DNA of 64,000 nt from an uncultured Pseudomonadales bacterium (lineage in GTDB: Bacteria; Patescibacteriota; Microgenomatia; UBA1400; CAYNFZ01). Below, piece after piece: positions 5,968 to 63,618 of this stretch (positions are counted from its first letter, which is position 1; the number at the start of each line of letters is the position of its first letter). The DNA is taken from assembly GCA_964398525.1 (NCBI GenBank), contig CAYNMS010000001.1:6569-70568 (forward strand), read 5' to 3'. The position numbers and the translations under genes are program-made. The notes beneath the pieces are model-generated. The model ran no database searches. It was given only the letters and a program-made list of their open reading frames with translations, and was not told where the DNA came from.

Positions 5968-6237
5968 AGGAAAACCCAATATACACTAAGTTCTTTCCAA
6001 CTTTAAACGCAATTCTCACGGAATTCTTACAAATATTTAATCCCATTAACCACAACCATTCTACTCAAAGCTGCTAATTTTCTCTCAATACCATTCTTCT
6101 AAATCTTCTGTCATGCAACCTCTGGCACCTTCTCTACCAGTTCAACTGGCTCGACCATGACCACTTCTTCTGGAACTCCTTCATCGTTTCCAACCGAATT
6201 CCGCTCCCCATCACCACCCCTACCATTACCGTCTTTC

Positions 6238-7905: not shown

Positions 7906-7928
7906 CCACCCATCATTTCAAGTTTGAC

Positions 7929-8754: not shown

Positions 8755-9211
8755 GATCGCTCTCCACGAATTTCTTAATTACTCCCTTCACTCCTCTCTC
8801 TATCATTTCATACACCCCCTTAAACCCACCTCCATAATACGGGTCAGGCACCCCCACTCCTGGCTCACCCACCAATTCCATCAACAATTCCACTCTAGCT
8901 TTTGATATTTCTGGTTTATTTTCTTTGAGCCACTCCACGTGCTCCTGGTCCATTCCTATTATCAAATCAAACTCATCAAAATCACTCTCATTCACTTGCC
9001 TGGCTCCACCTTCATACCTTATCCCTTTTTCTTCTAGTAGTCTCCTCGCTCTCAAATCCGCCTTTTCTCCCTCATGCGCTCCCACTGTCCCTGCCGAATC
9101 TACCCCCACCTCTCCCTCCAAACCCATCTTCTCCAACTCATTCTTCATCACCGCCTCCGCCATGGGCGAACGGCAAATATTTCCGGTACACACAAACAAT
9201 ATCTTAAACAC
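8747..9211 (-). CDS. low-molecular-weight protein-tyrosine phosphatase (or arsenate-reductase-like)
   Basis: N-terminal P-loop FVCTGNICRSPMAE (CX5R(S/T)) and a C-terminal DPYY-like motif (VPDPYYGG). Confidence 0.85.
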   Translation of the reverse strand: MFKILFVCTGNICRSPMAEAVMKNELEKMGLEGEVGVDSAGTVGAHEGEKADLRARRLLEEKGIRYEGGARQVNESDFDEFDLIIGMDQEHVEWLKENKPEISKARVELLMELVGEPGVGVPDPYYGGGFKGVYEMIERGVKGVIKKFVESDHE

Positions 9212-9255
9212 AATTTCCTACTTTACCCCAAACCTGGCGTTTTCCCAAGCCCAAA

Positions 9256-10935
9256 TTACCCGGACTTAACTTCCGCGATCAACTCCTCCAGTACACCAAT
9301 ATTGCCTGACACTTCTCTACCTCTTTCCCAAATTTCTTCTGCTTTTTCGCTCTCTCCCTCTTGCCACAGTACTTTCCCCCATAAAAACCAATTTTGCCAT
9401 TGCGTTGGTTCCAATTCGACTAACATTTCTACCTCCTCCTTCAATTCTTCACTAGCCCCCGTTTTCTCATAAAGGTGAATCAACCTCCTTCTGGACATAA
9501 AATCTTCAGGTTTACTTTCAGTTTGAAGTTTATAAACCAAAATCGCCTGCGCCCACTCTCCCATATCTTCCAACAACAAACCTGTAGCCAAAGCCGCCAT
9601 TCCTTCTTTAAGTTCCAGTGCCCTTCCACAGGCCTCAATTGCCTTAGGAAAATTCTCCTGGGTGCGCAACGTATGACACAAATTCGTCCACAACCTCCCC
9701 GTTTCCCGCCTCTCTATGTTATACCGATAAAACCCAATCGGCTCCGCCCACACTTCAATTTGTCTCCACGTCAGCCCCAACCAAACCACCAACACTCCGA
9801 CAGCCATCCACCTCAGTCGTTCCCACTTCCACTCTACACCGGCCACCAACCCGATCATCATCCCCGCCATCGCCACATAAAGCCAGTGTTCATAAAGTAG
9901 CGCATTACCGGGCAACACTCCGGTAAAAGGAAAGATAAATATCCACCACCAGGCCATTCCAAACCATATCCACATCTTTCCTTTCTCCCTGTATTCCCTC
10001 CACCCCAACCACAATATCAAAAGACTCACTCCTATCATCCCAGCAAACCAAATATTAACCCCCTTCATGATCGGCACCATCCGCTCGTAGTGTAAGCCCG
10101 TTGGCCACACCAACACTTTCATATACTCCCAAAACACTCTTCCAAAAGTCATCACCCTCACCCACAGGCTGTTAGTATACTCGCTCCCCAGCGACGAAAA
10201 CTCATAGCCATCCAAAAAGTTCAATCTGGTCAGCCTCAGCCACACGTATCCGACCACTCCGCCAAGTGCCGCTACCAAACCCACAATTTGAGCTTTATAA
10301 GCTTTCCACTTCTTCCACTTTTTCTTTTCCACTATCTCTTTAACACTAATCAGACCAAATAGCCCCACTCCCACCACTGCCACTTCTTTAGCCAAAATCG
10401 CCAACCAATATAATCCCACCGCCAGGGCAATTAACTTCCCCTTCCTCACTTTAGTGTTTTTCCCAAAAGCCTCCGCCCAGCAGTTTGCCCCTACAAAAAG
10501 TAGCAGCGCATACAAACTATCTCCCCTGGAATTTGCATAAGCTACTGCCTCCACTTGGGTTGGATGTACCAAAAAAGCCACCGCTACCACACCCGCCTCC
10601 TCACGTTTCATCCCCATCCTTACTAATAGTTCAAACAAAGCCACCCCCGCCATGCTGTGTAAAACCAGATTAGTCAAGTGAAACCCCATCGGGTTCAATC
10701 CCCACACTGCTTTATCCAGAGCAAATGTCAAAGACGTCAGTGGCCGGTAGTAGTTACTTACCTGTCCCACCCCGCTGGTCGTGCTCTCGGAAAATATTCG
10801 ATCAAACCTGCCCAGAGTAACACTCTCATTATCCACAAAAAAAGCATAATCATCCCACAAAAATCCATTTCCCAAACTCGGCAAATATGCTATCACGCCC
10901 ACCAAAAACATCAGCTTCCAGCTCAACCACTTCAT
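9256..10935 (-). CDS. polytopic membrane protein with FLWDDY motif and C-terminal TPR-like repeats (PMT/TMTC-like putative O-mannosyltransferase; GT39/DUF1736-like)
   Basis: More than 10 predicted TM helices. Conserved GFLWDDY near the N-terminus after the first TM, as in TMTC/DUF1736 proteins. The C-terminal ~130 aa are soluble and helical-repeat-like. Confidence 0.5.
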   Translation of the reverse strand: MKWLSWKLMFLVGVIAYLPSLGNGFLWDDYAFFVDNESVTLGRFDRIFSESTTSGVGQVSNYYRPLTSLTFALDKAVWGLNPMGFHLTNLVLHSMAGVALFELLVRMGMKREEAGVVAVAFLVHPTQVEAVAYANSRGDSLYALLLFVGANCWAEAFGKNTKVRKGKLIALAVGLYWLAILAKEVAVVGVGLFGLISVKEIVEKKKWKKWKAYKAQIVGLVAALGGVVGYVWLRLTRLNFLDGYEFSSLGSEYTNSLWVRVMTFGRVFWEYMKVLVWPTGLHYERMVPIMKGVNIWFAGMIGVSLLILWLGWREYREKGKMWIWFGMAWWWIFIFPFTGVLPGNALLYEHWLYVAMAGMMIGLVAGVEWKWERLRWMAVGVLVVWLGLTWRQIEVWAEPIGFYRYNIERRETGRLWTNLCHTLRTQENFPKAIEACGRALELKEGMAALATGLLLEDMGEWAQAILVYKLQTESKPEDFMSRRRLIHLYEKTGASEELKEEVEMLVELEPTQWQNWFLWGKVLWQEGESEKAEEIWERGREVSGNIGVLEELIAEVKSG

Positions 10936-10997
10936 CCCCCTAGCCTATCATAACTGCTTCGAAAATTGATCTCACACTCTCGCTTTCACACCTTAAA

Positions 10998-11258
10998 TCA
11001 ACCCTTTGAAGGGACGATTTGTCCTGTTTTCCAGTCAATTTTTCGACCAGGTCTTTTGTTTGCAGGCTCAGCTATCACAAATTCCTCTGGATCCAAAGCT
11101 TGTGCGTCTTCAGCAGAAATATCTCCAAGATAAGTTTTGAATCCTTGTCTTCCAACTCTTTCAAATCTAATTTTTCTATTAAAAATCTCGCTTTGATCCA
11201 TTTCACCATACTGCTCAATACTCATTCTTCCTCCCAAATGAATTGCTATATCCACCAT
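10998..11258 (-). CDS. hypothetical protein (86 aa)
   Basis: Complete ORF in the same orientation as its neighbours. No motif recognised. Confidence 0.35.
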   Translation of the reverse strand: MVDIAIHLGGRMSIEQYGEMDQSEIFNRKIRFERVGRQGFKTYLGDISAEDAQALDPEEFVIAEPANKRPGRKIDWKTGQIVPSKG

Positions 11259-11294
11259 AGTATACCCACCAATTCCCTTTCCGCAATCCCCTCT

Positions 11295-11960
11295 TTAACT
11301 CCAAAACTCCGGAAATTTCTTCATATACTTCTTTCGCCTCTCACCCTTCATTTCAGGAATAAACGGCCGAAAACTATCCAGTCTCTCCAAATTCCGCTCA
11401 AAGTGAAACAGCAACTTATTCACATAATTTGCTAAATCCTCATAAGCCTGAATATTTTCAATATAAAAATACTTCTCCTTTCTGTTGCCCGCACTCGATC
11501 TGGCCGTAAATGTCCCGATCCCTACCAAAGCCTGAAAATACCCTCGCCCGTATGCCCCAGTATCTTCAATCTTATCTAGCCCTAGCGACAAATTGTACCG
11601 ATTCCACGGCGTCGTGTAGATAAACTTAGTCAGTCTTCTGTTCGTCAAAATAAACACACTCTTCTTCCACAGTGTATACACCCACCAGCCCCCCACTCCC
11701 ATAAATAACCCCGCCAAGAATAAAACTGCCACCGACACTAACCCAATTCCTTCCACTCCCGCTTGAGCCACCAGCAAAGGCAATCCCATGCCCATTATCA
11801 CCAACACCGCTACCACCAAGACAATCATCAACATCCTCAACCACAGCATTACCGTCGCTTCCCGCGTAATATATAAAATTCGCTCATCACTGGATTGCCC
11901 TGGAAACTTCAAGTCCCGGTAAGGAAACACAAACTCTCCCACCCTAAAAACGCTATTCAT
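11295..11960 (-). CDS. membrane protein with bacterial PH (bPH_2/YdbT-like) domain
   Basis: Two TM helices follow a short N-terminus. ILTNRRLTKF and the downstream beta-rich segment resemble the DUF304/bPH_2 fold signature. Confidence 0.45.
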   Translation of the reverse strand: MNSVFRVGEFVFPYRDLKFPGQSSDERILYITREATVMLWLRMLMIVLVVAVLVIMGMGLPLLVAQAGVEGIGLVSVAVLFLAGLFMGVGGWWVYTLWKKSVFILTNRRLTKFIYTTPWNRYNLSLGLDKIEDTGAYGRGYFQALVGIGTFTARSSAGNRKEKYFYIENIQAYEDLANYVNKLLFHFERNLERLDSFRPFIPEMKGERRKKYMKKFPEFWS

Positions 11961-12194
11961 GCCCCTATTCTATCAGTCTTCTCCCCGTTCTTCTTCAACT
12001 TCAGGTTTTCTCACACTATCCCAAAACTCCACTCCCCACACTCCATCATCTATTGGACTTTCTGACGCATCCAATTGCTCTTCAATTTCACTCACCCTCA
12101 TCACCTCCATTCCAGATTTTTCCCATCCTACCAAACTGTCACCACCTTGTCTCTACCTCTCCACTACACACCATAAAATCTTCAAAATTCAAAT

Positions 12195-12659
12195 CTACCT
12201 TTCAATTTGTCTCCGCCAAATATTTCCCTCAGTCAAGTTAACAATCGATCGCTTTTCTTCTCCCACCTCCAAACTCCCCCTACCCAAATACTCCAAAATA
12301 GACTCCAAATAATCAGCTACATACCCTTTTTCTGCAAAAGCATTTGCTCCACAATCAAAAACAGTTCGTGAAAATTCTTCTCCTGTAGCTATCAATATTC
12401 GACACCAAGGTATTTGATTTCTGATTTCTTTAGCCAACACCAAACCGTCGTGATATCCATACAACTCGTTCTGCGTTCCCCTATCCCCCTTATCCAAAAC
12501 AGCCACTTCAAATTGCCTATTTGACCTAATAATAAATCTTGCTTGTGTCAAATTATGTGCTATTTCCACTTCCATTCCAAGATTTGTTAGTTTATCTTCC
12601 CAGATAATCGCCCAATCCCCATCATCATCTACTACCAACGCCCGTATTTTATCCATCAA
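12195..12659 (-). CDS. stand-alone response-regulator receiver (CheY-like) domain protein
   Basis: ALVVDDD acidic pocket, candidate phospho-acceptor Asp in AVLDKGD, conserved Thr (ILIATG) and Lys (AFAEKG). No output domain. Confidence 0.55.
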   Translation of the reverse strand: MMDKIRALVVDDDGDWAIIWEDKLTNLGMEVEIAHNLTQARFIIRSNRQFEVAVLDKGDRGTQNELYGYHDGLVLAKEIRNQIPWCRILIATGEEFSRTVFDCGANAFAEKGYVADYLESILEYLGRGSLEVGEEKRSIVNLTEGNIWRRQIER

Positions 12660-12719
12660 AATCCTGTTTATGAATATTGATTTCTAGAAAGAAACATTCT
12701 CCACTCACACATCTTCTTG

Positions 12720-12793
12720 TGGGTGAGCCAGGAATCGAACCTGGGACCTCTATCTTATCAGGATAGCGCTCTAACCGACTGAGCTACTCACCC
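12720..12793 (-). tRNA. tRNA-Ile (anticodon GAT)
   Basis: Reverse complement GGGTGAGTAGCTCAGTCGGTTAGAGCGCTATCCTGATAAGATAGAGGTCCCAGGTTCGATTCCTGGCTCACCCA. Cloverleaf with loop CTGATAA. It lies in the middle of protein genes, far from both rRNAs. Confidence 0.9.
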
Positions 12794-12848
12794 TCAACAA
12801 ACCCTGATTTTACCATGAACCACCCTGACAAAAAACGCTTTCTGCTTT

Positions 12849-13070
12849 TCACTCACCCCTATTTATTCTCAAGCTCAGCTCATTAACTACCATATCCAGT
12901 ACCACCACTGCCCCTCCGGCTATCATCAACACCTCATTTGCCTTACCTTCCAATTCCGCCACTAGCCCAATCAACAAACTCATTCCCCCAAAAATCTTAG
13001 CTCCTAAAGATAACCACACATAATCCGCATTCTGTTGGCAGTATTCATATATCTCTTCAGCTCTTCTCAT
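12849..13070 (-). CDS. hypothetical small protein (73 aa, one hydrophobic segment)
   Basis: ORF immediately downstream of ruvB, abutting with 0 nt gap. No motif recognised. Confidence 0.35.
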   Translation of the reverse strand: MRRAEEIYEYCQQNADYVWLSLGAKIFGGMSLLIGLVAELEGKANEVLMIAGGAVVVLDMVVNELSLRINRGE

Positions 13071-14111
13071 CTACAAAAGCCTAAGCTTTTCATCTCTCTG
13101 ATCCGCTATCCCCAAATGCTCATAAGCTTTCTCTGTCACTATTCTCCCCTTAGGTGTGCGCTTCAACAGTCCCGCTCTCATCAAAAACGGCTCATACATG
13201 TCCTCTATAGTAGCTACATCCTCGGCGATACTTGCCGCTAGTGTCGATAGCCCGACCGGTCCTCCACCATGCTTTTCTACAATGGCCGTCAGTAGCATTC
13301 GGTCATTTCCATCCAGTCCAATTTCATCCACCTCCAACAACTTAAGAGTTTTCTCTACCACATCTCTAGTTATCAATTTATGCTTATACACCTGGGCGAA
13401 ATCCCTCACTCTCTTTAGTAGTTTCAACCCAATTCTAGCCGTTTTCCTCGATCGTGCCGCCAGCATCAACGCCGCTTCATCCTCAAACTCCAACATCAGT
13501 TTCTCCGCTGCTCCCATAATAATTTCCGCTAACTCTCCATCACTGTAAAAGTCCAACCGGTGCACCACTCCAAATCTGTCTCTCAATGGTGAAGAAATCT
13601 TACCTACTTGCGTCGTCGCCCCCACAATCGTAAATGGTGCCAGATCAAGTCTCACCGTTCTTGCCCCTGGCCCTTTCCCCAACACGATATCCAAAGCAAA
13701 ATCCTCCATCGCCGGATACAGCGTTTCCTCCACCACCTTGTTCAACCGATGAATTTCATCAATAAAGAGTACATCGCCCCGCTCCAAGTTCGTCAAAATA
13801 CTTGCCAAATCCCCCGCCCGCTCCATCGCCGGCCCGCTTGTCACTCGAATATTTGCCCCCATCTCCTTGGCAATAATGTGAGCTAAAGTAGTTTTGCCCA
13901 GTCCCGGTGGCCCGTAAAACATCACGTGTTCAATCGGCTCACTCCGGCTCTTGGCCGCTTCCAAAGCAATTTTCAAAGCCTTCTTGACCTTTTCCTGACC
14001 TCGAAACTCACTCCAACTTCCTGCCCGCAAAGACTGGTAAAGCATTTCTTCTTCATCCTCAAGAGGCTCGACCACTCTCACCTCATCACTTTGAACCATT
14101 CTACTTGCCAT
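13071..14111 (-). CDS. ruvB: Holliday junction branch-migration ATPase RuvB
   Basis: Walker A GPPGLGKTTLA, Walker B LFIDEIHRL, sensor and arginine-finger regions, and a C-terminal winged-helix typical of RuvB. Confidence 0.95.
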   Translation of the reverse strand: MASRMVQSDEVRVVEPLEDEEEMLYQSLRAGSWSEFRGQEKVKKALKIALEAAKSRSEPIEHVMFYGPPGLGKTTLAHIIAKEMGANIRVTSGPAMERAGDLASILTNLERGDVLFIDEIHRLNKVVEETLYPAMEDFALDIVLGKGPGARTVRLDLAPFTIVGATTQVGKISSPLRDRFGVVHRLDFYSDGELAEIIMGAAEKLMLEFEDEAALMLAARSRKTARIGLKLLKRVRDFAQVYKHKLITRDVVEKTLKLLEVDEIGLDGNDRMLLTAIVEKHGGGPVGLSTLAASIAEDVATIEDMYEPFLMRAGLLKRTPKGRIVTEKAYEHLGIADQRDEKLRLL

Positions 14112-14117
14112 AATGTC

Positions 14118-14169
14118 TACTTACTACTTACTACTTACTACTTACTACTTACTACTTACTACTTACTAC
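14118..14169. repeat. heptanucleotide tandem repeat (TTACTAC)x7 (GTAGTAA on the ruvB-sense strand)
   Basis: Seven perfect 7-nt units read directly from the sequence, starting 7 nt upstream of the ruvB ATG (14111). They lie within the divergent region shared with the + strand GT-C gene at 14300. Confidence 0.9.
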
Positions 14170-14299
14170 ACGAAACATACCCCAAAACACCCTAGAGAGC
14201 AAGTCACTCCACATGGCTCTACTTTCTTATTATTCCCTCATTGATACCATTCTTACATCCAAGTAAAATCCCATTACTCAATCTTTTTTCTCTACCCAA

Positions 14300-15637
14300 T
14301 TGAATCGAATCTCCTCTCCACTTCACACCCTCCTCTCCCTCCTGGCTTTTCCTAAAGGCAAATCTCTCTCCCTTCTTTTAGCCCTCCTCCTGATTACTTT
14401 TCTCTTCTGGTTCCTTCGCCTCTATAACTTCGACCAACTCCTCACCTTCCACATCGACCAAGCCCAACATTTCTTCGAAGCCAAAGAAATGGTCGATACC
14501 CGGACTCCCAAACTGATCGGCCCTATTGTCACCACCCGCATGGTAGACGGCCGTGGCTTCTTTATCGGACCACTTTATTCCTATCTCTTGGCCATTCTAG
14601 GCAGCATTTTCAGCTGGAACATTATCGCCATTACCAAATTTCTTCTATTAATGTGGTGGTCTAGTGCTTTACTGCTCACCGTTTGGGTCGCCCGCCAACT
14701 TAATTGGTCAATTGCTCTATTGGTTTATCTACTCCTCGCCACCCATCCGACCCTTGTTGGTTATAGCCACATGGTCTTAAACCCCAACTTCCTCGCTTTG
14801 TTCTCCATTGGCTTTTTCTTTTTCCTCTTTCGCGCATTCTCCCACCCCTCCAAAGCCAATTGGTTCCTGACTGGCCTATTTACCGGTATTTGTCTGAGCT
14901 TTAACTACTTAGTTCTTTCCTATTTTGGCCTCATCGCCCTTGTCTGGCTTTACCAAATCTATCGTCGCCGTGCCCGCATTATCGACCCACTTGTCATCGG
15001 ATTTGGCATCATTCTTGGCAATCTGCCTTTCTTTATCTTCGAACTCCGGCACAATTTCTACAATCTCCGTACTATCCTTGATCTTGGTGTCAGTCCTGGT
15101 GGTGGAGCCAGTCTTATCGCCGGCTACACCCTCTTTGCTTTTCTTCCCCTAGCTGTCTGGATTTTTGCCTACTTTGCTGAATTTCTTCGCCGTAGAATCG
15201 GTTTTTTGGTTCCCCTCCTCCTCACACTTATCTTAGTTTTTTATTTCCAAACCTCCACTACTTATAGCCGTACCAGAGGTATCGGTATGCCCAAAGGCTG
15301 GAGTGTTCCCCTGCAGCAACAACTCGCCTACCAAATTTGCCAAGACAATCATGGCGAACCTTTCGAAATCGCCGCCATGGTCACTGCCGATATTCGCGCT
15401 ATGGATCTTCGCTGGTTTGTCCAGCAATGCGCCCAACCTGCCGGCTTTACACAGTATCCCTTCGTCGACACGCTTTATTTAGTCGACCAGGGTTTCTTAG
15501 CCCAAGGCATCGAGCCAGGCAATTGGGAAATCGCCAGTTTTGCCCCTTTTGCAGTTAGACAAAAGCAACAACTCAATCAATACCTCTGGTTTTACAAACT
15601 CGAACGCCTAAAACCTTCCTCCTCTCCCGCTCTCTGA
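14300..15637 (+). CDS. polytopic GT-C-fold membrane glycosyltransferase (ArnT/PMT/GT39-83-like)
   Basis: 445 aa with about 10-12 TM helices. Acidic first-loop motif (HIDQAQHFFEAKE) and large C-terminal periplasmic-type domain, the architecture of undecaprenyl/dolichyl-phosphate-sugar-dependent transferases. It interrupts the ruvA-ruvB gene pair on the opposite strand. Confidence 0.5.
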   Translation: MNRISSPLHTLLSLLAFPKGKSLSLLLALLLITFLFWFLRLYNFDQLLTFHIDQAQHFFEAKEMVDTRTPKLIGPIVTTRMVDGRGFFIGPLYSYLLAILGSIFSWNIIAITKFLLLMWWSSALLLTVWVARQLNWSIALLVYLLLATHPTLVGYSHMVLNPNFLALFSIGFFFFLFRAFSHPSKANWFLTGLFTGICLSFNYLVLSYFGLIALVWLYQIYRRRARIIDPLVIGFGIILGNLPFFIFELRHNFYNLRTILDLGVSPGGGASLIAGYTLFAFLPLAVWIFAYFAEFLRRRIGFLVPLLLTLILVFYFQTSTTYSRTRGIGMPKGWSVPLQQQLAYQICQDNHGEPFEIAAMVTADIRAMDLRWFVQQCAQPAGFTQYPFVDTLYLVDQGFLAQGIEPGNWEIASFAPFAVRQKQQLNQYLWFYKLERLKPSSSPAL

Positions 15638-15640
15638 CTC

Positions 15641-16195
15641 CTATCTCCCCAACTTCTTAATCACTTCTCTCACTTTCTCTTCCTCTCTCATACCAGCAGG
15701 TAAACCTCGAAGCACTTCCTCCACTTCTCGTCGTCCAAACCCCATACTCATCAACGCTTGAACCAGCTCTCCTCCATCTGTCTCCGTCAAATCTAGTTCT
15801 GCCAAATCTCCCAACTTACTCTTCAGATCCACTATTATCCGTTGTGCGTTCTTCTTGCCAATTCCCGACACGCTGGTAAAAAATCCTACATCTGCCATTG
15901 CCACCGCCTTCTGCACTTCTTCAGCTTTCCCTCGATTCAACACATTCATGGCCATTTTTGGCCCCACCCCTGAAACAGAAATTAACATCTGAAATAACTT
16001 TAGTTGTTTCTTGTCCCTAAACCCATAAAGCGTCAACTCATCTTCTTTGACATATGTGTGCACATAAACTTCCAAACCTGCTCCTTTCTCCAATCCCTCA
16101 GATACCATCACCACTTTATATCCCACCCCACCTACCATCAGTATCAAAGACTTCTCCGCCACCTCATATATTTCACCTTTTAAAAATCCAATCAT
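15641..16195 (-). CDS. ruvA: Holliday junction DNA helicase RuvA
   Basis: N-terminal MIGFLKGEI...GVGY OB-fold start, HhH motifs (GVGPKMA, GIGKKNA) and a C-terminal RuvB-interaction domain. Confidence 0.9.
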   Translation of the reverse strand: MIGFLKGEIYEVAEKSLILMVGGVGYKVVMVSEGLEKGAGLEVYVHTYVKEDELTLYGFRDKKQLKLFQMLISVSGVGPKMAMNVLNRGKAEEVQKAVAMADVGFFTSVSGIGKKNAQRIIVDLKSKLGDLAELDLTETDGGELVQALMSMGFGRREVEEVLRGLPAGMREEEKVREVIKKLGR

Positions 16196-16229
16196 TTCCC
16201 TCCTTTATTCGCCTCATATTATCACACCT

Positions 16230-16700
16230 TTGACCAACACTTCCGCCAGAGGTTATAGTTACCCTATGCTCAAAATCTATCGTTTCCTTGCCGTCATCAT
16301 GCTCATCTCCGGAGCCATTATGTTCTCCGCTCTCCTACAAACCTTCGATGCACTCCCTCCCCGCCTCGTTCAATCCCTCATCAATTCTCTAGATCACCGC
16401 CGCCTCCGTGAGCCTACCCAATCGCAAATCTACGATATGTTTAATCAATCCAAACTCTGCCGCCAAAACGCCGACTGTAGTTACTCTGTTACTCGCCAAA
16501 CCCATTGCCAAATAGAAGTCGCCAACCGCTATTACCTCGAAATCCCCGAAGATCAAGAATTTGTTTTCAACCCCATCGATTGCCCCACTCTACCTGAACG
16601 CGACTTTGACTACCTCACTTGCTCTAAAAATATCTGCACCAAACACAATCTGCCCTTTAAGGATTTCTTCACTCGTCCCAACCCCTCTCCCCAGCCCTAA
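16230..16700 (+). CDS. small Cys-rich membrane-anchored or secreted protein (156 aa)
   Basis: N-terminal hydrophobic anchor (FLAVIMLISGAIMFSALL), then a soluble region with 6 Cys (CRQNADCSY...HCQ...DCP...CSKNIC). Wedged convergently between ruvA and ruvC, with a 4-nt overlap on the ruvC stop. Confidence 0.4.
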   Translation: MTNTSARGYSYPMLKIYRFLAVIMLISGAIMFSALLQTFDALPPRLVQSLINSLDHRRLREPTQSQIYDMFNQSKLCRQNADCSYSVTRQTHCQIEVANRYYLEIPEDQEFVFNPIDCPTLPERDFDYLTCSKNICTKHNLPFKDFFTRPNPSPQP

Positions 16701-17188
16701 GTCGACCTTGTCCTCAATTGACTGTTGATAAAAAAATGCGTCAATGCCGCCGCCATCGCATCCGCCGCATCATCAGATTTTGGCACAGCTTTCAACTTCA
16801 ACTGGCTTTTTACCATCATCTGCATTTGCTTTTTGTCAGCCTGGCCATAGCCGGCTATACATCGCTTTATCTGTAGTGGCGTGTAGTTATAAGCCGCTAC
16901 CTTCTTTTTTACTAAAGCTACCAAAATTACCCCCCGAGCCTGCCCCACTCCCATCACCGTCTTGGCATTTTTAAAAAAGTACAACTCCTCCACTGCCGCT
17001 GCATCTGGATGATGTTTATCCACCAACTCACTAATTTGATCAAAAATCTCCTCTAGTCTTACATTCAATGAGTCTGTTGGCGAAGTCTCCAAACACCCGC
17101 ACTCCACCAAATTTTGCCTAGATCGATTTCCTTCCACTATCGCCCAGCCCATCCTCCCAAACCCCGGATCAATTCCCAATACTTTCAT
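16697..17188 (-). CDS. ruvC: crossover junction endodeoxyribonuclease RuvC
   Basis: N-terminal MKVLGIDPGFGRMGWAIVEG with catalytic Asp, conserved E/D/D carboxylates, RNase H-like fold, 163 aa. Confidence 0.88.
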   Translation of the reverse strand: MKVLGIDPGFGRMGWAIVEGNRSRQNLVECGCLETSPTDSLNVRLEEIFDQISELVDKHHPDAAAVEELYFFKNAKTVMGVGQARGVILVALVKKKVAAYNYTPLQIKRCIAGYGQADKKQMQMMVKSQLKLKAVPKSDDAADAMAAALTHFFINSQLRTRST

Positions 17189-17225
17189 GTTCCTATCTTA
17201 TCTTTAAACCCTTAATACTCAACTC

Positions 17226-18470
17226 CTATTTCTCCCAGTCAGACATCACTGTCTGTGGCAGCCTCAATTTCCTAGGCATCACTAAAAACAATCCAACACA
17301 AACTACAGCTCCAAAAATCCCCAACCATCCAAAAGTTGCGATCTCACCAATAAATTCCGATGCTCCTCCTACCAAAACCGGCCCAAACACAAAGGCAATA
17401 CTGCCCATCGAACTGGACAAACCCACCAGATGTTTTCTCTCTCTCCCCATCCTACTTAATAAATCCGTATACACGGCATCAATCAAGGGTAAAGCTACCG
17501 AAGCCAACATGCCTGCTACAAACACCAAAGCTATCCTAAACGGCAAACTCACATCCAAAAGTTGTAACCCTAAAACCAGACTCGCACCCGCCATCAAACC
17601 TGTTGCCCAAATCTTTTTCCGTCGATATATACCCCATTTAACAATCATCCCTCCCGCAAACAATGATGGTAACAAATATGCCGGTATCCACAACCCGCCC
17701 CACCAACTCTCTTTCAGCAAGCGGGCAGACAGCACCGCCCCTATTGTCCAAAAACTCGAATCAATCAACGTAAAGATCAATGACAACACCAATATAGGCC
17801 AGATATGAGGCAGCAATACTAACCAGTGTCCTATTTCGTCTTTCAAGTTCACATGTTTCCAATCCGCGCTCCATTCCCGCTCTCCCTTTTTGTCGGATAT
17901 CAAAATAATCATTCCCCCTCCTAAAACCGCCAAACCGATGGCAACCATTAACATCGCCTCTACTCCTATCATCAGCAACCCTCCCGCTAATAGCGGACCA
18001 AACACGTAAGCCAAACTCGAAAAGGTTCGCAATATCGCCCACACTCCGCTTCGCCTCTCTACCCTTACCCTCTCGGCCACATACTGCTGTTTAGCAAAAA
18101 TTAAAATTTCATAATACACCCCCCACAACCCCATCCCCACCAGCGCCAACCATAATCCTCGCATCAAAAACACCCACCCCATTACTCCACTAAACAATAT
18201 TCCTACTACCACCCCAAACACAAACAGATAAGTAGCCTTAATTTCTTTAACTATCTGAGGAAAGGCTAAATCCACTCCCAGCCCCACCACCGACGAAAAA
18301 CTCATCACCAAGCCCATCAATAATCCACTCCCCCAAATTTCCTCCAATAGTCCTGGCACCCAGAAACTCAACATCGCATCTGCCAAATAGATGAAAAAAA
18401 TTGCGCTTACCAAACCAGCCATCCTCAGCCAAAACGGATTAAATCTACCTTGCCATTCTTGTTTCTTCAT
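17226..18470 (-). CDS. MFS-type transporter (12 TM)
   Basis: 414 aa organised as two six-helix halves separated by a charged loop (ISDKKGEREWSADWKH). Gly-rich helices typical of the major facilitator superfamily. Confidence 0.55.
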   Translation of the reverse strand: MKKQEWQGRFNPFWLRMAGLVSAIFFIYLADAMLSFWVPGLLEEIWGSGLLMGLVMSFSSVVGLGVDLAFPQIVKEIKATYLFVFGVVVGILFSGVMGWVFLMRGLWLALVGMGLWGVYYEILIFAKQQYVAERVRVERRSGVWAILRTFSSLAYVFGPLLAGGLLMIGVEAMLMVAIGLAVLGGGMIILISDKKGEREWSADWKHVNLKDEIGHWLVLLPHIWPILVLSLIFTLIDSSFWTIGAVLSARLLKESWWGGLWIPAYLLPSLFAGGMIVKWGIYRRKKIWATGLMAGASLVLGLQLLDVSLPFRIALVFVAGMLASVALPLIDAVYTDLLSRMGRERKHLVGLSSSMGSIAFVFGPVLVGGASEFIGEIATFGWLGIFGAVVCVGLFLVMPRKLRLPQTVMSDWEK

Positions 18471-19310
18471 CTTTCAATCTTAGCAATTCTTTCTTACCAA
18501 TTTCATGCCAAAACTCTCTCCCCCCTTGAATATAATATATTCATGGTTTCCCTCGTTCTCCTTAACCTTTTTCTTTTTCTCTTCCTTCTCTTAGTCATTT
18601 TTGAACTTTCCCTGTCTCACAAGCCTTCTCGTTTTCATCAAACCTCCCTTTCGTTTTCTCCCTTCTTTACCCTGGTACTTGTTCTCATTTCCATGGCTTT
18701 AGTCTTGGCTCTAATCCTCTATGCCCCCGGTCATCTTCTCCGCTACTACATCATTTTCCTCATGGGCTTTTCCCTAGTGTCTCATACTTTTTGGCTTTCC
18801 CAGAATAAGCATCACCAATTTATCTTTCCTCTCCTGGCTCTCCTACTCTTCTTTGCTCGTTTGTATACCAGTTACGATCTGATCCATAATCTTTTTCTCA
18901 TCTTTGCCATCTCCTGGCTTGGTCCAGTCATCACTCAAATCAAACTCATCAATCGCCACCGCTTTGTCGTTATCAGCCTCCTCTGGTTTCTCTATGATAT
19001 TGTCTTTGTCTGGGTTAGTAAAACCAGCGCCCAAGTCCAAGTTAATACCGAAAATATCGGCTTTCCCCTCGGCCTCACCGTCTCCGACAATCTTCTTGGC
19101 ACGGGTGATCTCCTTTGGTCTTCTTTATTCCTCTCCATCCTGCCTTCCTCCCACACCCGTCTTCACGCCTCTCTCTTACTCTTGTCTTCCAACATCATTC
19201 TCAATCTTTTGGCCATCACCCTCGGGTTTTACACCTTCCCCCTTCTCGTCCTCTGGGTCCCCCTTGGCATTCTCTACCTCAATTTTTCCATCAAAAAACC
19301 CCGCGTTTAA
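18450..19310 (+). CDS. putative GxGD-type intramembrane aspartyl protease (presenilin/signal-peptide-peptidase-like, A22-like)
   Basis: Polytopic protein. It has a YD motif in a TM helix (LWFLYDIVFVW) and, about 40 aa later, LGTGDLLW (GxGD) at the start of another helix, the two-aspartate signature of presenilin/SPP homologues; a PLG motif sits near the C-terminus. The true start may lie downstream of 18450, which overlaps the MFS gene. The stop codon lies in the loop of the 16S terminator hairpin. Confidence 0.4.
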   Translation: MPFLFLHLSILAILSYQFHAKTLSPLEYNIFMVSLVLLNLFLFLFLLLVIFELSLSHKPSRFHQTSLSFSPFFTLVLVLISMALVLALILYAPGHLLRYYIIFLMGFSLVSHTFWLSQNKHHQFIFPLLALLLFFARLYTSYDLIHNLFLIFAISWLGPVITQIKLINRHRFVVISLLWFLYDIVFVWVSKTSAQVQVNTENIGFPLGLTVSDNLLGTGDLLWSSLFLSILPSSHTRLHASLLLLSSNIILNLLAITLGFYTFPLLVLWVPLGILYLNFSIKKPRV

Positions 19311-19316
19311 GCGGGG
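19293..19316 (-). terminator. rho-independent terminator downstream of 16S (CCCCGC-loop-GCGGGG + T6 on the minus transcript)
   Basis: Perfect 6-bp GC stem followed on the minus strand by TTTTTT. About 225 nt past the 16S 3' end. Confidence 0.5.
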
Positions 19317-19540
19317 TAATCTAGCGAATCCAGGCAATTCTAAACCTCTAAGAGGTGGTAGGAAGCGACCATCCCAAACAGAAAGCCTGTTTAAGCTGGT
19401 CCCTTCTTGGTCTCCGTGGCAACTACAAGGTAATGCCACGTGCCCAATTTAAGGCTGGGTGCCTAGAGTATTTTTGATCTGTTACCAGATCAGGGTATTT
19501 ACTTATCCCATGCGTGAGGCTGGGAACCCGTACTCCTTAG

Positions 19541-21044
<1,504 letters not shown>

Positions 21045-60383: not shown

Positions 60384-60456
60384 CGCGGGGTAGTGTACGG
60401 TAGCACGTGAGGCTCATAATCTCACAGACCAGGTTCAACTCCTGGCCCCGCAACCA
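60384..60456 (+). tRNA. tRNA-Met (anticodon CAT), initiator-like
   Basis: CGCGGGG...CCCCGCAACCA, the same ends as E. coli tRNA-fMet, with an unpaired C1 x A72 (the bacterial initiator hallmark). Anticodon loop CTCATAA. CCA encoded. The anticodon stem lacks the three consecutive G-C pairs of canonical initiators. Confidence 0.8.
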
Positions 60457-61164: not shown

Positions 61165-62046
61165 ATGGAAAACCCCGATTCCGCCACTTCTCTTTCTGCC
61201 ACTCACCAACAATTCATCAAAAATCTCCGTGACAAAGGCCGAGCCAATGCCACCATTCTTGCCTATGGCAAAGATATTGACCAGCTAATTGAATTCGCCG
61301 CTCTCCAAAAAATCACCGCCCCTCAAGCTATTACCCCCAACTTAATTGAACAATTCAAAGCCCACCTCGAAGCAGAAGGCTACACTCCTAAATCTATCTC
61401 CAGAAAAATCAACTCTATCAAGTCGTATTTTCGTTTTCTCCGTTCCCAAAAACTAATCCAAGACAATCCAGCCAACGACATCTCTCATCCCAAAGTCGAA
61501 CTTACCCCACCCAGAATTCTCACCAAACTCGAATACCGCGCCCTTCGCGATGCTTGTCGTCGTGACGAACGCGTCAGCGCCATTGTCGAACTCCTGCTCC
61601 AAACCGGTATTCGTATTAGTGAGTTGGCCGGCCTTAATCTGGAAGATGTCGACGCTACCAATAAAAAGATCCACATCCGCTCCGAAGCCGATCATGAAGC
61701 TCGTTCCATTCCTCTCAATCAGCCTGCAGCCAAAGCCCTAGAGGAATACCTAAAGTATCGACCCAAAACCAATGCCAAAACCCTCTTTGTTACCAAAACC
61801 GGCCGACCATTCCTTATCAGAAACATTCGTGCTGCCATTGATCGCTACTTCCGTCTTGCCGGCATCACCAATGCCAAAGTCAACGACTTAAGACACACCT
61901 TCATCGCCGAGCAATTAGCCGCCGGCACCCCCCTAGTCTATGTCAGCAAACTTGTCGGCCACAAACGCCTGACCACTACCGAAAAATATCTCAAATTCCT
62001 CGATAACCGCATGGAGAAAAACGAAGTTCGCCTCCAGGAACTCTAA
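61165..62046 (+). CDS. tyrosine site-specific recombinase (XerC/XerD-like integrase)
   Basis: N-terminal SAM-like core-binding domain. Catalytic R (GIRISEL), H-x-x-R (DLRHTFIAEQL), second His (LVGHKRL) and nucleophile Tyr (TTEKYLKF). 293 aa. Codon usage is host-like. Confidence 0.85.
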   Translation: MENPDSATSLSATHQQFIKNLRDKGRANATILAYGKDIDQLIEFAALQKITAPQAITPNLIEQFKAHLEAEGYTPKSISRKINSIKSYFRFLRSQKLIQDNPANDISHPKVELTPPRILTKLEYRALRDACRRDERVSAIVELLLQTGIRISELAGLNLEDVDATNKKIHIRSEADHEARSIPLNQPAAKALEEYLKYRPKTNAKTLFVTKTGRPFLIRNIRAAIDRYFRLAGITNAKVNDLRHTFIAEQLAAGTPLVYVSKLVGHKRLTTTEKYLKFLDNRMEKNEVRLQEL

Positions 62047-62432
62047 TGCCCGAACTCCCATTTGAGTCTGGGGGTCGAATTTGCCCCTTCACTTCTCACG
62101 ATCCAGACGGCAATCCTGACTTTTGTCGCAGAAAAAGCTGTCTCTTAAACAATATTCCCGACTGTGTTTTAGAAAGTTTAAAAATATCTGCCGAAGCCTA
62201 CTCAATTGATCAATTAGAAAATGAAGAAGAACAAGCTTCTCGAACATCTGATGTTCCCCCATTTCTCATCTCCCTCAGATTAGGAAGAGAACTTTTTGAG
62301 ATTCAACAAGAAATCGACAATACCACTAGACAACTAAGAATTAATCGTGATCAGTTTATCTCAAGCCTTCCTCAACAGCTTAGACCTCTCACCTATTCAC
62401 ACCCCAAATCATCAGAAGAAAGAACAGCTTAG
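62046..62432 (+). CDS. hypothetical protein with N-terminal Cys cluster, translationally coupled to the recombinase (TAATG overlap)
   Basis: C-x..C...C..C in the first 40 aa. The 3' two-thirds (after ~62160) are AT-rich and lose the host's C-over-G bias. Confidence 0.3.
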   Translation: MPELPFESGGRICPFTSHDPDGNPDFCRRKSCLLNNIPDCVLESLKISAEAYSIDQLENEEEQASRTSDVPPFLISLRLGRELFEIQQEIDNTTRQLRINRDQFISSLPQQLRPLTYSHPKSSEERTA

Positions 62433-62680
62433 TGTGCCGATTTCTTCTTCCTTAGTTTCACTCCTTCAAACACCTGCTCTTCCCCAGTTTCTTCATCTAC
62501 AATCTTGATAGTATAAGTTCTTCCCTCATCCTTTTCCTCTAACTTGTCTTGGCTATAAAAAAACTCATCCCAAAACGCCGCCTCGTAATCATCGTCTTGA
62601 AACATTTCACTCGTGTCTTCATCAAAATCAAAGTCATCTGAAAATTTCTTACTCATATTCCTCCTTGAGTATTTCCCCAA
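62429..62680 (-). CDS. small highly acidic protein (83 aa; D/E/F-rich)
   Basis: MGKYSRRNMSKKFSDDFDFDEDTSEMFQDDDYEAAFWDEFFYSQDKLEEKDEG... has a net negative charge of about -15. Convergent with the preceding ORF. Confidence 0.4.
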   Translation of the reverse strand: MGKYSRRNMSKKFSDDFDFDEDTSEMFQDDDYEAAFWDEFFYSQDKLEEKDEGRTYTIKIVDEETGEEQVFEGVKLRKKKSAH

Positions 62681-62778
62681 AAGCAGATGCTATAATAACA
62701 CCTCCCTCGAGTAAATACTACTACCACAGACTATAGCTCTTTTTCCCTTTTGTTCCCAGTACGCTAAAATACCCATAC

Positions 62779-62802
62779 GGGAGTGTAGCTCAGTGGTAGA
62801 AC
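62779..62802 (+). other. 5' tRNA fragment (acceptor 5' strand + D-arm: GGGAGTGTAGCTCAGTGGTAGAAC)
   Basis: Matches the canonical tRNA 5' third, but no anticodon arm follows. Its acceptor strand is complementary to the 3' fragment at 62963..62992. Confidence 0.5.
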
Positions 62803-62825
62803 CTTAAATAATTCCGCGAGTACTT

Positions 62826-62898
62826 GCGCGAGTAGCTCAATTGGCAGAGCTGTCGTCTTATACACGACTGGTTCCAGGTTCAAGTCCTGGCTCGCGCA
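62826..62898 (+). tRNA. tRNA-Ile (anticodon TAT; UAU decoding AUA)
   Basis: GCGCGAGTAGCTCAATTGGCAGAGCTGTCGTCTTATACACGACTGGTTCCAGGTTCAAGTCCTGGCTCGCGCA. All four stems are perfect (acceptor 7/7, D 4/4, anticodon 5/5, T 5/5). T-loop TTCAAGT. Anticodon loop CTTATAC. Confidence 0.8.
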
Positions 62899-62962
62899 CC
62901 TTTTAAAACGTCTTTTTCTCGCCTGGACCATCCAGGCAGAACAAGCCTAGCTTTTACACGTC

Positions 62963-62992
62963 CGGCCGGAGGTTCGAATCCTCCCGCTCCCA
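62963..62992 (+). other. 3' tRNA fragment (variable region + T-arm GGAGG-TTCGAAT-CCTCC + acceptor 3' strand CGCTCCC + A)
   Basis: Canonical T-arm. Its acceptor 3' strand pairs 7/7 (one G-U) with GGGAGTG of the 5' fragment at 62779. Together they would make a tRNA lacking only the anticodon arm. Confidence 0.5.
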
Positions 62993-63078
62993 CCTCTCTA
63001 AACTAGATAGTTAGTCTCAATCAAGTAATTAATTTGCTTTGTCTATCTCCTGTCACTAGACTGAAATATTCCCGATTG

Positions 63079-63618
63079 ATGAAAGAAACAATTGACTCCG
63101 TCACTCCTGATGATGCCATAGCCGATGCCTTAATATTTGGATATGCTGGTCTAATTCTTAAACAAGCTCATCATTTTCAAGAATCTCAACAAATCTCTTT
63201 GTCAACTATTGCAGCAGAATGTACAGTCCACGAGTGCGTTCCTGCATCAGCCAGAGCACTTGCTTATTTATTCACTCGACACTCCTCACTTTTCAAACGC
63301 TACTTTCTTCTTCATTCAGTTAATGCATTAAAAGGAACTCAACATCTCTGTTACAGCCTTGATCATCTTAAACATCAACTCCAAACCCAGCCACGCTCTC
63401 ACCCCCTAGTTTCCTATCCTGCCTATCAATATCCTGACTCCAACCAACACATGCTCTTTGTAGTCCTTGACAATAACAACCATTTTCATTGGGGATCTCC
63501 TGCCAATTCAGAAGTCAACGATCATCATACGCAACTATCCAAAATAATAACTTCACACAATGCTCCTGACATACCAACTTTAATTACTCAAGTTACCTCA
63601 TACGAAGGTGGTCTTTGA
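63079..63618 (+). CDS. hypothetical His-rich protein (180 aa) with atypical base composition
   Basis: ORF from the ATG at 63079. G is about equal to C on the + strand here, unlike the host pattern where C greatly exceeds G. No motif recognised. Confidence 0.4.
   Translation: MKETIDSVTPDDAIADALIFGYAGLILKQAHHFQESQQISLSTIAAECTVHECVPASARALAYLFTRHSSLFKRYFLLHSVNALKGTQHLCYSLDHLKHQLQTQPRSHPLVSYPAYQYPDSNQHMLFVVLDNNNHFHWGSPANSEVNDHHTQLSKIITSHNAPDIPTLITQVTSYEGGL

What the first reader, a model, noticed from the sequence alone, without database searches (positions are those of the whole stretch)
62779..62994. Intact tRNA-Ile(UAU) gene nested between the two complementary halves of a split tRNA-like sequence
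GGGAGTGTAGCTCAGTGGTAGAAC (acceptor 5' strand + D-arm) at 62779 and GGAGGTTCGAATCCTCCCGCTCCCA (T-arm + acceptor 3' strand) at 62963 have perfectly complementary acceptor strands. Together they would form a tRNA missing only the anticodon arm. In that exact position lie about 160 nt containing a flawless 73-nt tRNA cloverleaf with anticodon TAT. That insert is flanked by a short direct repeat (GCGAGTA at 62816 and 62828) and by a hairpin (GCCTGGACCATCCAGGC, 62921..62937). This is neither a normal tRNA array nor a group-I intron: the insert is too short and is itself a tRNA. It may be a tRNA gene disrupted or rebuilt by site-specific integration into the anticodon loop, a split or permuted tRNA, or a novel tRNA-in-tRNA arrangement. 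A tyrosine recombinase lies 0.7 kb upstream and compositionally foreign ORFs lie on both sides.
Basis: seen in the sequence. Interest (0 to 1): 0.72.

Follow-up and report, generated by a model that had tools for sequence, protein, structure and literature searches.

The report
Dead tRNA-Ile gene holding its replacement
The outer "split tRNA" is the broken remnant of this bacterium's original tRNA-Ile(UAU) gene, and a working tRNA-Ile(UAU) gene of a different lineage now sits inside it; similar arrangements recur in related uncultured bacteria, and how they form is unknown.

Summary
An intact tRNA-Ile(UAU) gene (62826-62898) lies between tRNA-like pieces whose acceptor strands pair. The 360-nt locus is identical in six independent assemblies.

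Relatives identify the outer pieces. At the same site (DivIC, Xer recombinase, small acidic protein, tRNA), L009, L010, L134 and L135 carry an uninterrupted tRNA-Ile(UAU). It is 81-88% identical to the outer pieces, and its last 25 nt in L009 match exactly. The inner gene belongs to another lineage: 88% to L008, 67% to the outer gene.

The outer gene is in three pieces, not two: 62779-62803, 62907-62914 (the "missing" 5' anticodon-stem strand) and 62954-62992. Two insertions split it: 103 bp carrying the inner tRNA at position 26/27, and a 39-bp hairpin in the anticodon loop. The reconstructed anticodon is TTT, so the outer gene is dead.

No group I intron, tmRNA or integration-site signature was found. 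The recombinase is a conserved Xer-type gene, also present in relatives without nesting.

Same-strand tRNA-Ile fragments flank 12-27 of 123 related metagenomic genes. 5' pieces lie upstream and 3' pieces downstream in 36 of 37 cases. The insertion mechanism is unresolved.

The parts
62688..62696 (+). Promoter-like extended -10 element, TGcTATAAT. It probably drives the whole locus.
   Evidence: Read directly from the sequence. TGCTATAATA(A/G)CAC is conserved upstream of the tRNA-Ile gene in WIN, L010, L134 and L136; L011 keeps the TATAATAACAC part, and L012 shows the full motif in raw sequence. The simple -35/-10 scan found nothing, so function is inferred.
62779..62803 (+). Outer tRNA-Ile relic, piece 1: acceptor 5' strand and D-arm (tRNA positions 1-26). 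It has a C11-A24 mismatch.
   Evidence: Unique match. 21 of 24 nt match the intact type A tRNA-Ile(TAT) of L009 and L010.
62804..62825 (+). 22-nt leader of the inserted segment. It contains CGCGAGTA (62815-62822), a copy of positions 2-9 of the inner tRNA.
   Evidence: Sequence. The leader is AT-rich and aligns with the shorter leaders of L011 and L136.
62826..62898 (+). Inner, intact tRNA-Ile(UAU) of type B. This is the functional gene.
   Evidence: ARAGORN. Rfam tRNA 68.8 bits. 88% identical to the L008 gene and 67% to the outer gene.
62899..62906 (+). 8-nt spacer CCTTTTAA, the 3' end of the 103-bp insertion A (62804-62906).
   Evidence: Sequence and alignment with L011.
62907..62914 (+). 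Outer relic, piece 2: AACGTCTT, the 5' anticodon-stem strand plus the first three loop bases (positions 27-34).
   Evidence: It pairs 4 of 5 with ACGTC at 62958-62962. L011 has GATGTCTT at the homologous place, paired with GCATT through a compensatory change. ARAGORN accepts the reconstruction at default settings only when this piece is included.
62915..62953 (+). Insertion B: 39 nt in the outer anticodon loop, with the hairpin GCCTGG/CCAGGC at 62921-62937.
   Evidence: Sequence. It is homologous to the L011 segment TTTCGCGCCGGGG...GGAACATT, which has a different but still paired hairpin. It is found only in copies of this same strain among 137 loci.
62954..62992 (+). Outer relic, piece 3: the rest of the anticodon loop (TTAC, so the anticodon reads TTT), the 3' anticodon-stem strand, variable loop, T-arm, acceptor 3' strand and discriminator A.
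   Evidence: 62959-62992 is 33/34 identical to positions 39-72 of the L009 tRNA. The last 25 nt match 25/25. nhmmer with a 3'-half model gives 21.8 bits, E 1e-4.

Best explanation
This locus is a tRNA-Ile(UAU) gene that was disrupted and replaced in place.

The resident gene (type A) is orthologous to the intact genes at the same site in L009, L010, L134 and L135. It is now broken into three pieces. A 103-bp segment inserted between tRNA positions 26 and 27 carries a complete tRNA-Ile(UAU) of another lineage (type B) with no promoter of its own. A 39-bp hairpin-forming insertion sits in the anticodon loop.

The inner gene is the working one. It is probably transcribed from the resident gene's conserved TGcTATAAT promoter. 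The outer 5' piece is then part of its leader and the other outer pieces are part of its trailer. RNase P and the 3'-end processing enzymes would cut the inner tRNA out.

The outer gene is a relic. Its anticodon reads TTT and it has stem mismatches. It persists because the insert supplies the function it destroyed and borrows its promoter, which makes the event nearly neutral.

On origin, I commit to insertion of a DNA segment from another tRNA-Ile lineage. It was probably brought in or moved between genomes by recombination that used the conserved tRNA sequence as short homology arms.

Shown: the anatomy, the ancestry of both genes, the disabling lesions and the recurrence elsewhere. Inferred: the promoter use, the processing steps and the insertion route.
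For: - Intact type A genes occupy the syntenic site in relatives. The acidic small protein and the Xer gene confirm the synteny.
- The outer reconstruction is 81-88% identical to type A and 66-76% to type B. The inner gene is 88% identical to L008.
- The three-piece reconstruction is accepted by ARAGORN at default settings, with anticodon TTT. The two-piece reconstruction is rejected.
- L011 and L136 share the architecture, but their relics are far more decayed.
- tRNA type does not follow the Xer tree. L133 (type B) and L134 (type A) differ although their Xer proteins are 84% identical. This implies repeated replacement.
- The promoter motif is conserved.
- Six independent assemblies give the identical locus.
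- Same-strand tRNA-Ile fragments flank 12 (strong) to 27 (any) of 123 related genes, with the correct polarity in 36 of 37 cases. L027 has a fully intact outer gene, 40 and 44 bits, which reads as tRNA-Ile(TAT) once its insert is removed.
Against: - The donor of the 103-bp segment was not found.
- No target-site duplication, terminal repeat or nearby mobility gene explains how it inserted.
- WIN, L011 and L136 share derived features and so share an origin. Yet the WIN relic is much better preserved than insertion B, which is only about 60% identical to that of L011 by my reading of the alignment. This needs either constraint on the relic or a recent recombinational transfer into an intact type A gene.
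- Assigning AACGTCTT as piece 2 rests on a 7-of-8 match. By my own estimate that has roughly a 6% chance of arising in a 155-nt insert. The L011 parallel and the ARAGORN result add support.
- No expression data exist.
Confidence: 0.8

Rival explanations
1. The outer pieces form a functional interrupted tRNA: a bacterial multi-intron or tri-split tRNA. The tRNA-bearing segment and the hairpin would be removed at the RNA level, for example by RNase P and RNase Z cuts around the inner tRNA followed by ligation, or by an unknown endonuclease.
For: After both inserts are removed in silico, the pieces make a cloverleaf that ARAGORN accepts. The acceptor strands pair 7/7. The relic is unusually well preserved compared with L011 and L136. 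The L027 outer gene is perfect once its insert is removed. Patescibacteria do carry tRNA introns (PMC13011429).
Against: The anticodon can only read TTT. There are C11-A24 and A27-C43 mismatches. No group I, group II or ribozyme family matches, even at E<=10. The intron-end rules fail, since there is no G before the 3' junction. Most other loci have only one half, or a truncated one. The inner gene already supplies the function. No bacterial enzyme is known to perform such splicing (background knowledge).
Confidence: 0.05
2. The pieces are attL/attR scars left by a genomic island or prophage that integrated into the tRNA gene through the tyrosine recombinase 0.7 kb upstream. Most of the element was later deleted.
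For: tRNA genes are classic integration targets, and displaced fragments mark island ends (PMC4383910). A Phage_integrase-family protein is nearby. The region downstream of the tRNA varies among relatives. Other loci show an intact tRNA followed by a 3' fragment that starts in the anticodon loop or T-loop.
Against: The recombinase lies outside the nest. It is 60-79% identical to proteins from many related contigs that sources name XerC/XerD. It keeps its place next to DivIC in relatives with un-nested tRNA. The displaced pieces are not repeats of the inner gene (67% identity). A 5' fragment upstream is not what integrases that restore the 3' end leave behind. The inserts are 103 and 39 bp and carry no genes.
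Confidence: 0.07
3. No foreign DNA was involved. Partial tandem duplications, caused by slippage or template switching with one breakpoint in a tRNA loop, produced extra 5' pieces upstream and 3' pieces downstream. The copies then diverged.
For: A tandem duplication with one breakpoint inside the gene automatically yields the observed polarity, 36 of 37. In L039, L113, L121, L112 and L117 the fragments match the adjacent gene's own sequence, with repeated spacer-plus-half units. The window itself has a 12-nt micro-duplication of the inner 5' end (62815-62834).
Against: In the window, inner and outer are only 67% identical, and each groups with a different lineage of intact genes in relatives. 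A neutral relic should not stay type A-like while the functional copy becomes type B-like. Piece 2 lies downstream of the inner gene, which a simple tandem duplication does not produce.
Confidence: 0.15
4. Chance resemblance or an assembly chimera that joined two tRNA loci.
For: None beyond the prior that tRNA-like motifs are common.
Against: The locus is identical in six independent assemblies. Both halves are unique in the window, with zero matches in shuffles. The match to L009 is 33/34.
Confidence: 0.01

Closest known systems
Displaced tRNA gene fragments at integration sites of genomic islands (Islander database, PMC4383910; tRNA gene fragments reviewed in PMC9897764)
   Same: An intact tRNA gene lies next to a partial copy on the same strand. 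Breakpoints fall in the anticodon loop or T-loop. Several metagenomic loci here (L104, L112, L117, L014, L017) look just like this on their 3' side.
   Different: In the window the fragments surround the intact gene on both sides. They belong to a different sequence lineage from it. The intervening DNA is about 100 bp with no genes. The nearby recombinase is a conserved housekeeping-type Xer gene outside the structure.
[quoted passage not shown] 2026, PMC13011429)
   Same: The host group appears to be the same. Interruptions fall in the anticodon loop, and in L027-type loci the junction is at or next to 35/36. Real group I introns are present in related contigs (tRNA-fMet in L011 and L015).
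   Different: There is no group I core and no Rfam hit. The non-tRNA part of the insert is far too short. There is no U/G splice-site signature. The insert contains a complete tRNA. The exons are degenerate.
Archaeal split, tri-split and multi-intron tRNA genes (reviewed in PMC4090602)
   Same: A tRNA sequence is divided into two or three pieces at structural junctions or loops. In some loci complementary flanks adjoin the junctions.
   Different: Those genes are essential. They are processed by the archaeal splicing endonuclease at bulge-helix-bulge motifs, and their pieces are conserved. Here the pieces decay in relatives, the anticodon is destroyed and a complete gene of the same function sits inside.
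tRNA-Ile with a UAU anticodon as the AUA decoder in bacteria lacking TilS (Mycoplasma mobile, PMC3575796)
   Same: Both the inner gene and the ancestral outer gene are of this uncommon bacterial type.
   Different: That work concerns decoding, not gene structure.

Membership tests
Relic (pseudogene) of a displaced tRNA gene | An intact orthologue occupies the syntenic site in relatives. | tested here: met
   L009, L010, L134 and L135 have an uninterrupted tRNA-Ile(TAT) after DivIC, Xer and the acidic protein. Identity to the outer reconstruction is 81-88%.
Relic (pseudogene) of a displaced tRNA gene | Disabling lesions in the relic and a functional replacement copy. | tested here: met
   There are two insertions, the anticodon reads TTT, and there are C11-A24 and A27-C43 mismatches. 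The inner gene scores 68.8 bits.
Relic (pseudogene) of a displaced tRNA gene | The relic decays in other lineages that share the event. | tested here: met
   L011 keeps only a D-arm piece and the interrupted anticodon arm. L136 keeps only GGTGGTAGAG.
tRNA gene with a group I intron | A group I catalytic core detectable by covariance model. | tested here: not met
   No Intron_gpI hit at E<=10 in 62650-63100. Caveat: divergent Patescibacteria introns can escape RF00028 (PMC13011429).
tRNA gene with a group I intron | [quoted passage not shown] | tested here: not met
   Insertion B ends in T. Insertion A lies at 26/27, outside the loop. The restored anticodon is TTT, not TAT.
Integrase-mediated island in a tRNA gene | The displaced fragment is a direct repeat of part of the restored gene. 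| tested here: not met
   The outer and inner genes are 67% identical overall.
Integrase-mediated island in a tRNA gene | An integrase is encoded inside the element, next to an att site. | tested here: not met
   The recombinase (61165-62046) lies upstream of both pieces and is syntenic in un-nested relatives.
Archaeal-type split or multi-intron tRNA | Bulge-helix-bulge motifs at the junctions and a splicing endonuclease in the genome. | not tested
   Junctions were not scored for bulge-helix-bulge motifs. Only 64 kb of the genome is available, so the enzyme's presence cannot be assessed.
tmRNA (standard or permuted) | A G3-U70 pair, a tag reading frame and a match to the covariance model. | tested here: not met
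   The pair is G3-C70. ARAGORN finds no tmRNA. Rfam scores are 6.9 and 11.3 bits against a gathering score of 47.

The most novel reading that the evidence does not exclude
The nested arrangement may be the footprint of an undescribed small element of Patescibacteria. The element would insert into loops or junctions of a tRNA gene and carry a full copy (or the missing part) of that same tRNA, so that insertion costs the cell nothing. Such an element can spread between genomes and can re-target its own copy, giving multi-layer nests.

Observations that fit this:
- WIN and L027 have intact-looking outer genes of a different lineage from the inner one.
- Repeated spacer-plus-half layers occur in L039, L043, L113 and L116.
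- L027, L060 and L112 have conserved 13-16 bp inverted repeats around the inner gene, with compensatory changes.
- A family of 130-185 nt sequences follows Ser, Met, Val, Gly and Ile tRNA genes. Each holds a guide-like stretch complementary to its own tRNA's T-loop and is followed by a duplicate of the tRNA 3' end.

A weaker variant is that some of these interrupted genes are spliced.
Probability: 0.2. Interest if true: 0.85.

Novelty: new variant of a known kind. Interest (0 to 1): 0.55.

Why it matters
Partial tRNA genes next to intact ones are normally read as scars of island integration. Here the relic surrounds a complete tRNA gene of the same function but a different lineage, with no integrase involved. 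Related arrangements recur in roughly 10-20% of the related metagenomic tRNA-Ile(UAU) loci I could sample.

This shows one way an essential single-copy tRNA gene can be exchanged in a very small genome without a lethal intermediate. It also warns annotators that intron or split-tRNA callers can be misled at such loci.

If a dedicated self-compensating element underlies the pattern, it would be a new kind of mobile DNA.

Tried and rejected
- ARAGORN with intron options (0-300 nt) on 62601-63100 found no interrupted tRNA at default settings. Only poor artefacts appeared at lowered thresholds.
- Rfam at E<=10 on the window locus and on L027, L113, L058, L089, L067, L076 and L049 found only tRNAs and noise. 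There was no group I or II intron, ribozyme or tmRNA.
- An exact-stem pattern for the inner tRNA found nothing in the metagenome collection. A junction pattern found nothing in viral contigs. The degenerate pattern found one 'viral' contig, which has the same length (169,059 nt) as the metagenome contig of L078 and was not followed up.
- The genome-collection scan with the recombinase returned only one relative, L008.
- Neighbours of nested loci in other contigs are housekeeping-type genes (FtsH by sequence resemblance, HPF, DUF1189, PIN, CobA, ATP-grasp, an Xer-like recombinase). None is a transposase or homing endonuclease.
- The 4.3 kb lying between the halves in L052 gave no Pfam hits.
- A two-piece model, with the anticodon arm simply deleted, was rejected in favour of the three-piece model.
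- Pairing between the ends of the insert (7 bp in L027 and L060) is not significant on length alone, p about 0.16. The window's insertion A shows no significant flank pairing.
- The window's downstream ORF has no real similarity to the ORF at that position in L134.
- I noticed a 13-nt resemblance of some downstream elements to the Tetrahymena group I P4-P5 region. That rests on a sequence recalled from memory. It was not supported by comparison with the real introns in L011 and L015, so it is left as a lead only.

Full report
**Observation**

The sequence is as described, with small corrections. The 5' half-like 24-mer is at 62779-62802. Each is unique in the 64-kb window even with three mismatches allowed, and none of 100 shuffles gave a match. 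Their acceptor strands pair 7/7.

ARAGORN and Rfam both call an intact tRNA-Ile(TAT) at 62826-62898, at 68.8 bits. The hairpin at 62921-62937 is present. The two GCGAGTA copies do not flank the insert: one is in the leader and the other is inside the inner tRNA.

The 360 nt around the locus are identical in six assemblies made from six different sequencing runs. A misassembly is therefore very unlikely.

**Context**

The window carries bacterial 16S and 23S rRNA genes, five tRNA genes, and FtsH, TrpRS, TrpB and DivIC.

The 293-aa tyrosine recombinase at 61165-62046 has thousands of homologues. Those at 60-79% identity come from uncultured bacteria. Sources name them XerC/XerD or assign them to Candidatus Chisholmbacteria, Woesebacteria and Cerribacteria. 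I therefore infer that the organism belongs to the Patescibacteria (Candidate Phyla Radiation, CPR) and is Microgenomates-like.

In ten related contigs the order DivIC, recombinase, small acidic protein (conserved AAFWDEF motif), tRNA-Ile(TAT) is kept. The recombinase is thus a resident Xer-type gene, not part of an island.

**What the outer pieces are**

At the syntenic position, L009 and L010 carry an uninterrupted tRNA-Ile(TAT). I call this lineage type A. Its first 24 nt differ from the window's outer 5' piece at 3 positions. In L009 its last 25 nt are identical to the outer 3' piece. L009 positions 39-72 match 62959-62992 at 33 of 34 positions. L134 and L135 have the same type.

The inner gene belongs to another lineage, type B. 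It is 88% identical to L008, 84% to L133 and L012, and only 67% to the outer gene. The outer reconstruction is 81-88% identical to type A genes.

The outer "split tRNA-like sequence" is therefore the former resident tRNA-Ile(UAU) gene.

**Refined anatomy**

The "missing" 5' strand of the outer anticodon stem is present. AACGTCTT at 62907-62914 lies eight bases after the inner tRNA. It pairs with ACGTC at 62958-62962.

| Feature | Coordinates | tRNA positions or size |
|---|---|---|
| Outer piece 1 | 62779-62803 | positions 1-26 |
| Insertion A | 62804-62906 | 103 bp: 22-nt leader, inner tRNA, CCTTTTAA |
| Outer piece 2 | 62907-62914 | positions 27-34 |
| Insertion B | 62915-62953 | 39 bp with the hairpin, in the anticodon loop |
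| Outer piece 3 | 62954-62992 | positions 35-73 |

Removing A and B in silico gives a cloverleaf that ARAGORN accepts at default settings.

The restored anticodon can only be TTT. There are also C11-A24 and A27-C43 mismatches. As a tRNA-Ile gene, the outer gene is dead.

L011 and L136 share this architecture. Their 5' relic ends at the D-arm, followed by an AT-rich leader, the inner gene, and then an interrupted anticodon arm. In L011 the stem (GATGT/GCATT) and the inner hairpin stay paired through different bases. Their relics are otherwise nearly erased.

**How the locus probably works**

The motif TGCTATAATA(A/G)CAC is conserved upstream of the tRNA-Ile gene in WIN, L010, L134 and L136. L011 keeps the TATAATAACAC part, and L012 shows the full motif in raw sequence. 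In the window it lies at 62688-62701, about 80 nt before outer piece 1.

The 22-nt leader of the inner gene has no promoter-like element. The inner tRNA is therefore most likely transcribed through the relic and released by the normal tRNA end-processing enzymes. This step is inferred. The simple promoter scan found nothing, and no expression data exist.

**Alternatives that fail**

- No group I or II intron, ribozyme or tmRNA model matches the region, even at E<=10. The tmRNA-type hits score 6.9 and 11.3 bits against a gathering score of 47. The pair is G3-C70, not G3-U70.
- Real group I introns do occur in relatives. The initiator tRNA-Met of L011 and L015 carries a 202-nt intron. Those introns look nothing like the inserts here.
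- The integrase-scar model fails. The recombinase lies outside the structure, the displaced pieces are not repeats of the inner gene, and the inserts are tiny.

**Evidence for repeated replacement**

On a neighbour-joining tree of the Xer proteins, tRNA types are intermingled. WIN groups with L008 (type B). L009 and L010 are type A. L011 and L136 are type B with relics. L133 (type B) and L134 (type A) have Xer proteins that are 84% identical. The tRNA-Ile(UAU) gene at this site has therefore been exchanged more than once, and the window preserves an intermediate.

**Recurrence elsewhere**

A degenerate pattern for type B tRNA-Ile(TAT) retrieved 120 metagenome contigs. I presume they are Patescibacteria, but I did not verify that.

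I masked all complete tRNAs and searched with profile models of the 5' and 3' halves. This gave 13 strong hits (E<=1e-3) in 12 loci, and 24 weaker hits within 500 nt on the same strand. In all, 27 of 123 genes were affected. 5' fragments lay upstream and 3' fragments downstream in 36 of 37 cases. Some contigs are near-duplicates, so these counts are approximate.

In L027 both outer halves are intact (40 and 44 bits) and differ from the inner gene by compensatory changes. Removing the insert at the anticodon loop gives a perfect tRNA-Ile(TAT).

Junctions usually read ...CTT(A) on the left and (T)ACACG... on the right.

In L039, L043, L113, L116, L121 and L065, units of spacer plus 5' half are repeated upstream. 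Units of spacer plus 3' part, starting in the T-loop, are repeated downstream. In these loci the fragment sequences equal the inner gene.

L027, L060 and L112 have a 13-16 bp perfect inverted repeat. It is made of the leader plus the first bases of the inner tRNA on one side, and sequence just after the tRNA on the other. No shuffle out of 2000 matched its length, and the bases differ between loci in a compensatory way.

Other tRNA species in these contigs (Ser, Asn, Val, Met, Gly) also have self-fragments. Their breakpoints fall in the D-loop, the anticodon loop or the T-loop.

**Mechanism and its limits**

For the window, the simplest reading is insertion of a DNA segment from another tRNA-Ile lineage into the resident gene. 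The event could be fixed because it compensates for itself and captures a promoter.

Partial tandem duplications would also give the polarity rule, and they fit the loci where fragment and gene are identical. They do not explain inner and outer genes of different lineages, nor a relic piece lying downstream of the inner gene.

One observation is unexplained. WIN, L011 and L136 clearly share an origin, yet the WIN relic is far better preserved than insertion B, which is about 60% identical between WIN and L011 by my reading of the alignment. Two readings remain open. The relic may be under some constraint. Alternatively, the cassette may have moved recently into an intact type A gene by recombination through the short conserved tRNA arms. 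I favour the second reading but could not test it.

No transposase, homing endonuclease or integrase was found next to nested loci.

**Comparison and novelty**

Displaced tRNA fragments are a known consequence of integration (PMC4383910, PMC9897764). tRNA introns are known in Patescibacteria (PMC13011429).

My five full-text searches found no description of a complete tRNA gene nested inside the relic of a same-anticodon gene, and none of its recurrence. I rate this a new variant of a known kind.

There is a minority possibility that a self-compensating, tRNA-targeting element underlies it.

Noticed in passing
window 1123-21042 (- strand): The rRNA genes are unlinked. The order is 16S (19541-21042), tRNA-Ile(GAT) (12720-12793), tRNA-Ala (4328-4400), 23S (1123-4053). 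The 6.7-kb and 8.3-kb gaps hold ordinary genes: RuvA, RuvB, an MFS transporter, a TPR protein and a low-molecular-weight phosphatase.
   Followed up: partly
window 8858-8872 (+): A 15-nt exact copy of the 3' end of tRNA-Ile(GAT), in inverted orientation, lies 3.9 kb from that gene inside the Ile-Ala gap and within ORF 8747-9211 (E 0.003).
   Followed up: no
whole window: Strand asymmetry is extreme. GC skew is -0.24 to -0.53 in every 4-kb window, and it holds over genes on either strand.
   Followed up: no
window 60384-60456; L011 571-845; L015 8013-8285: The window's initiator-like tRNA-Met has no intron. Near-identical genes in L011 and L015 carry a 202-nt group I-type intron in the anticodon loop.
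   Followed up: partly
window 62046-62432 and 63034-63618: Two ORFs of 128 and 194 aa have no Pfam match. They are absent from these positions in relatives, so the surroundings of the tRNA are a variable region.
   Followed up: partly
L058 3860-4070 and 4155-4520; L085, L048, L041, L076, L080, L089, L067, L043, L113, L049: A family of 130-185 nt sequences follows tRNA genes (Ser, Met, Val, Gly, Ile). Each contains a stretch complementary to that tRNA's own T-loop and T-stem. The conserved motifs are GGCGGAG and GGGGTCGnGAGCC, or CGGGAAaGGGGTCGGGAAAC. Most members end in ..GAC. A duplicate of the tRNA from the T-loop to the 3' end then follows. There is no Rfam match.
   Followed up: partly
L052 3280-3380; L084 about 4510-4610: Upstream of complete tRNA-Val(GAC) genes lies a partial tRNA-Val copy. 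Its anticodon loop holds a homologous 34-39 nt hairpin insert (cccgtacaacg...cgtttacgggg), as seen for Ile in the window.
   Followed up: no
L052 3456-7966: 5' and 3' halves of a tRNA-Ile(TAT) relic lie 4.4 kb apart. They enclose the intact gene plus about 4.3 kb of 60% G+C DNA with no Pfam hits. The sequences next to the two junctions are complementary to each other.
   Followed up: partly
L024, about 40 nt downstream of its first tRNA-Ile(TAT) gene: Two different complete tRNA-Ile(TAT) genes lie in tandem, 42 nt apart.
   Followed up: no
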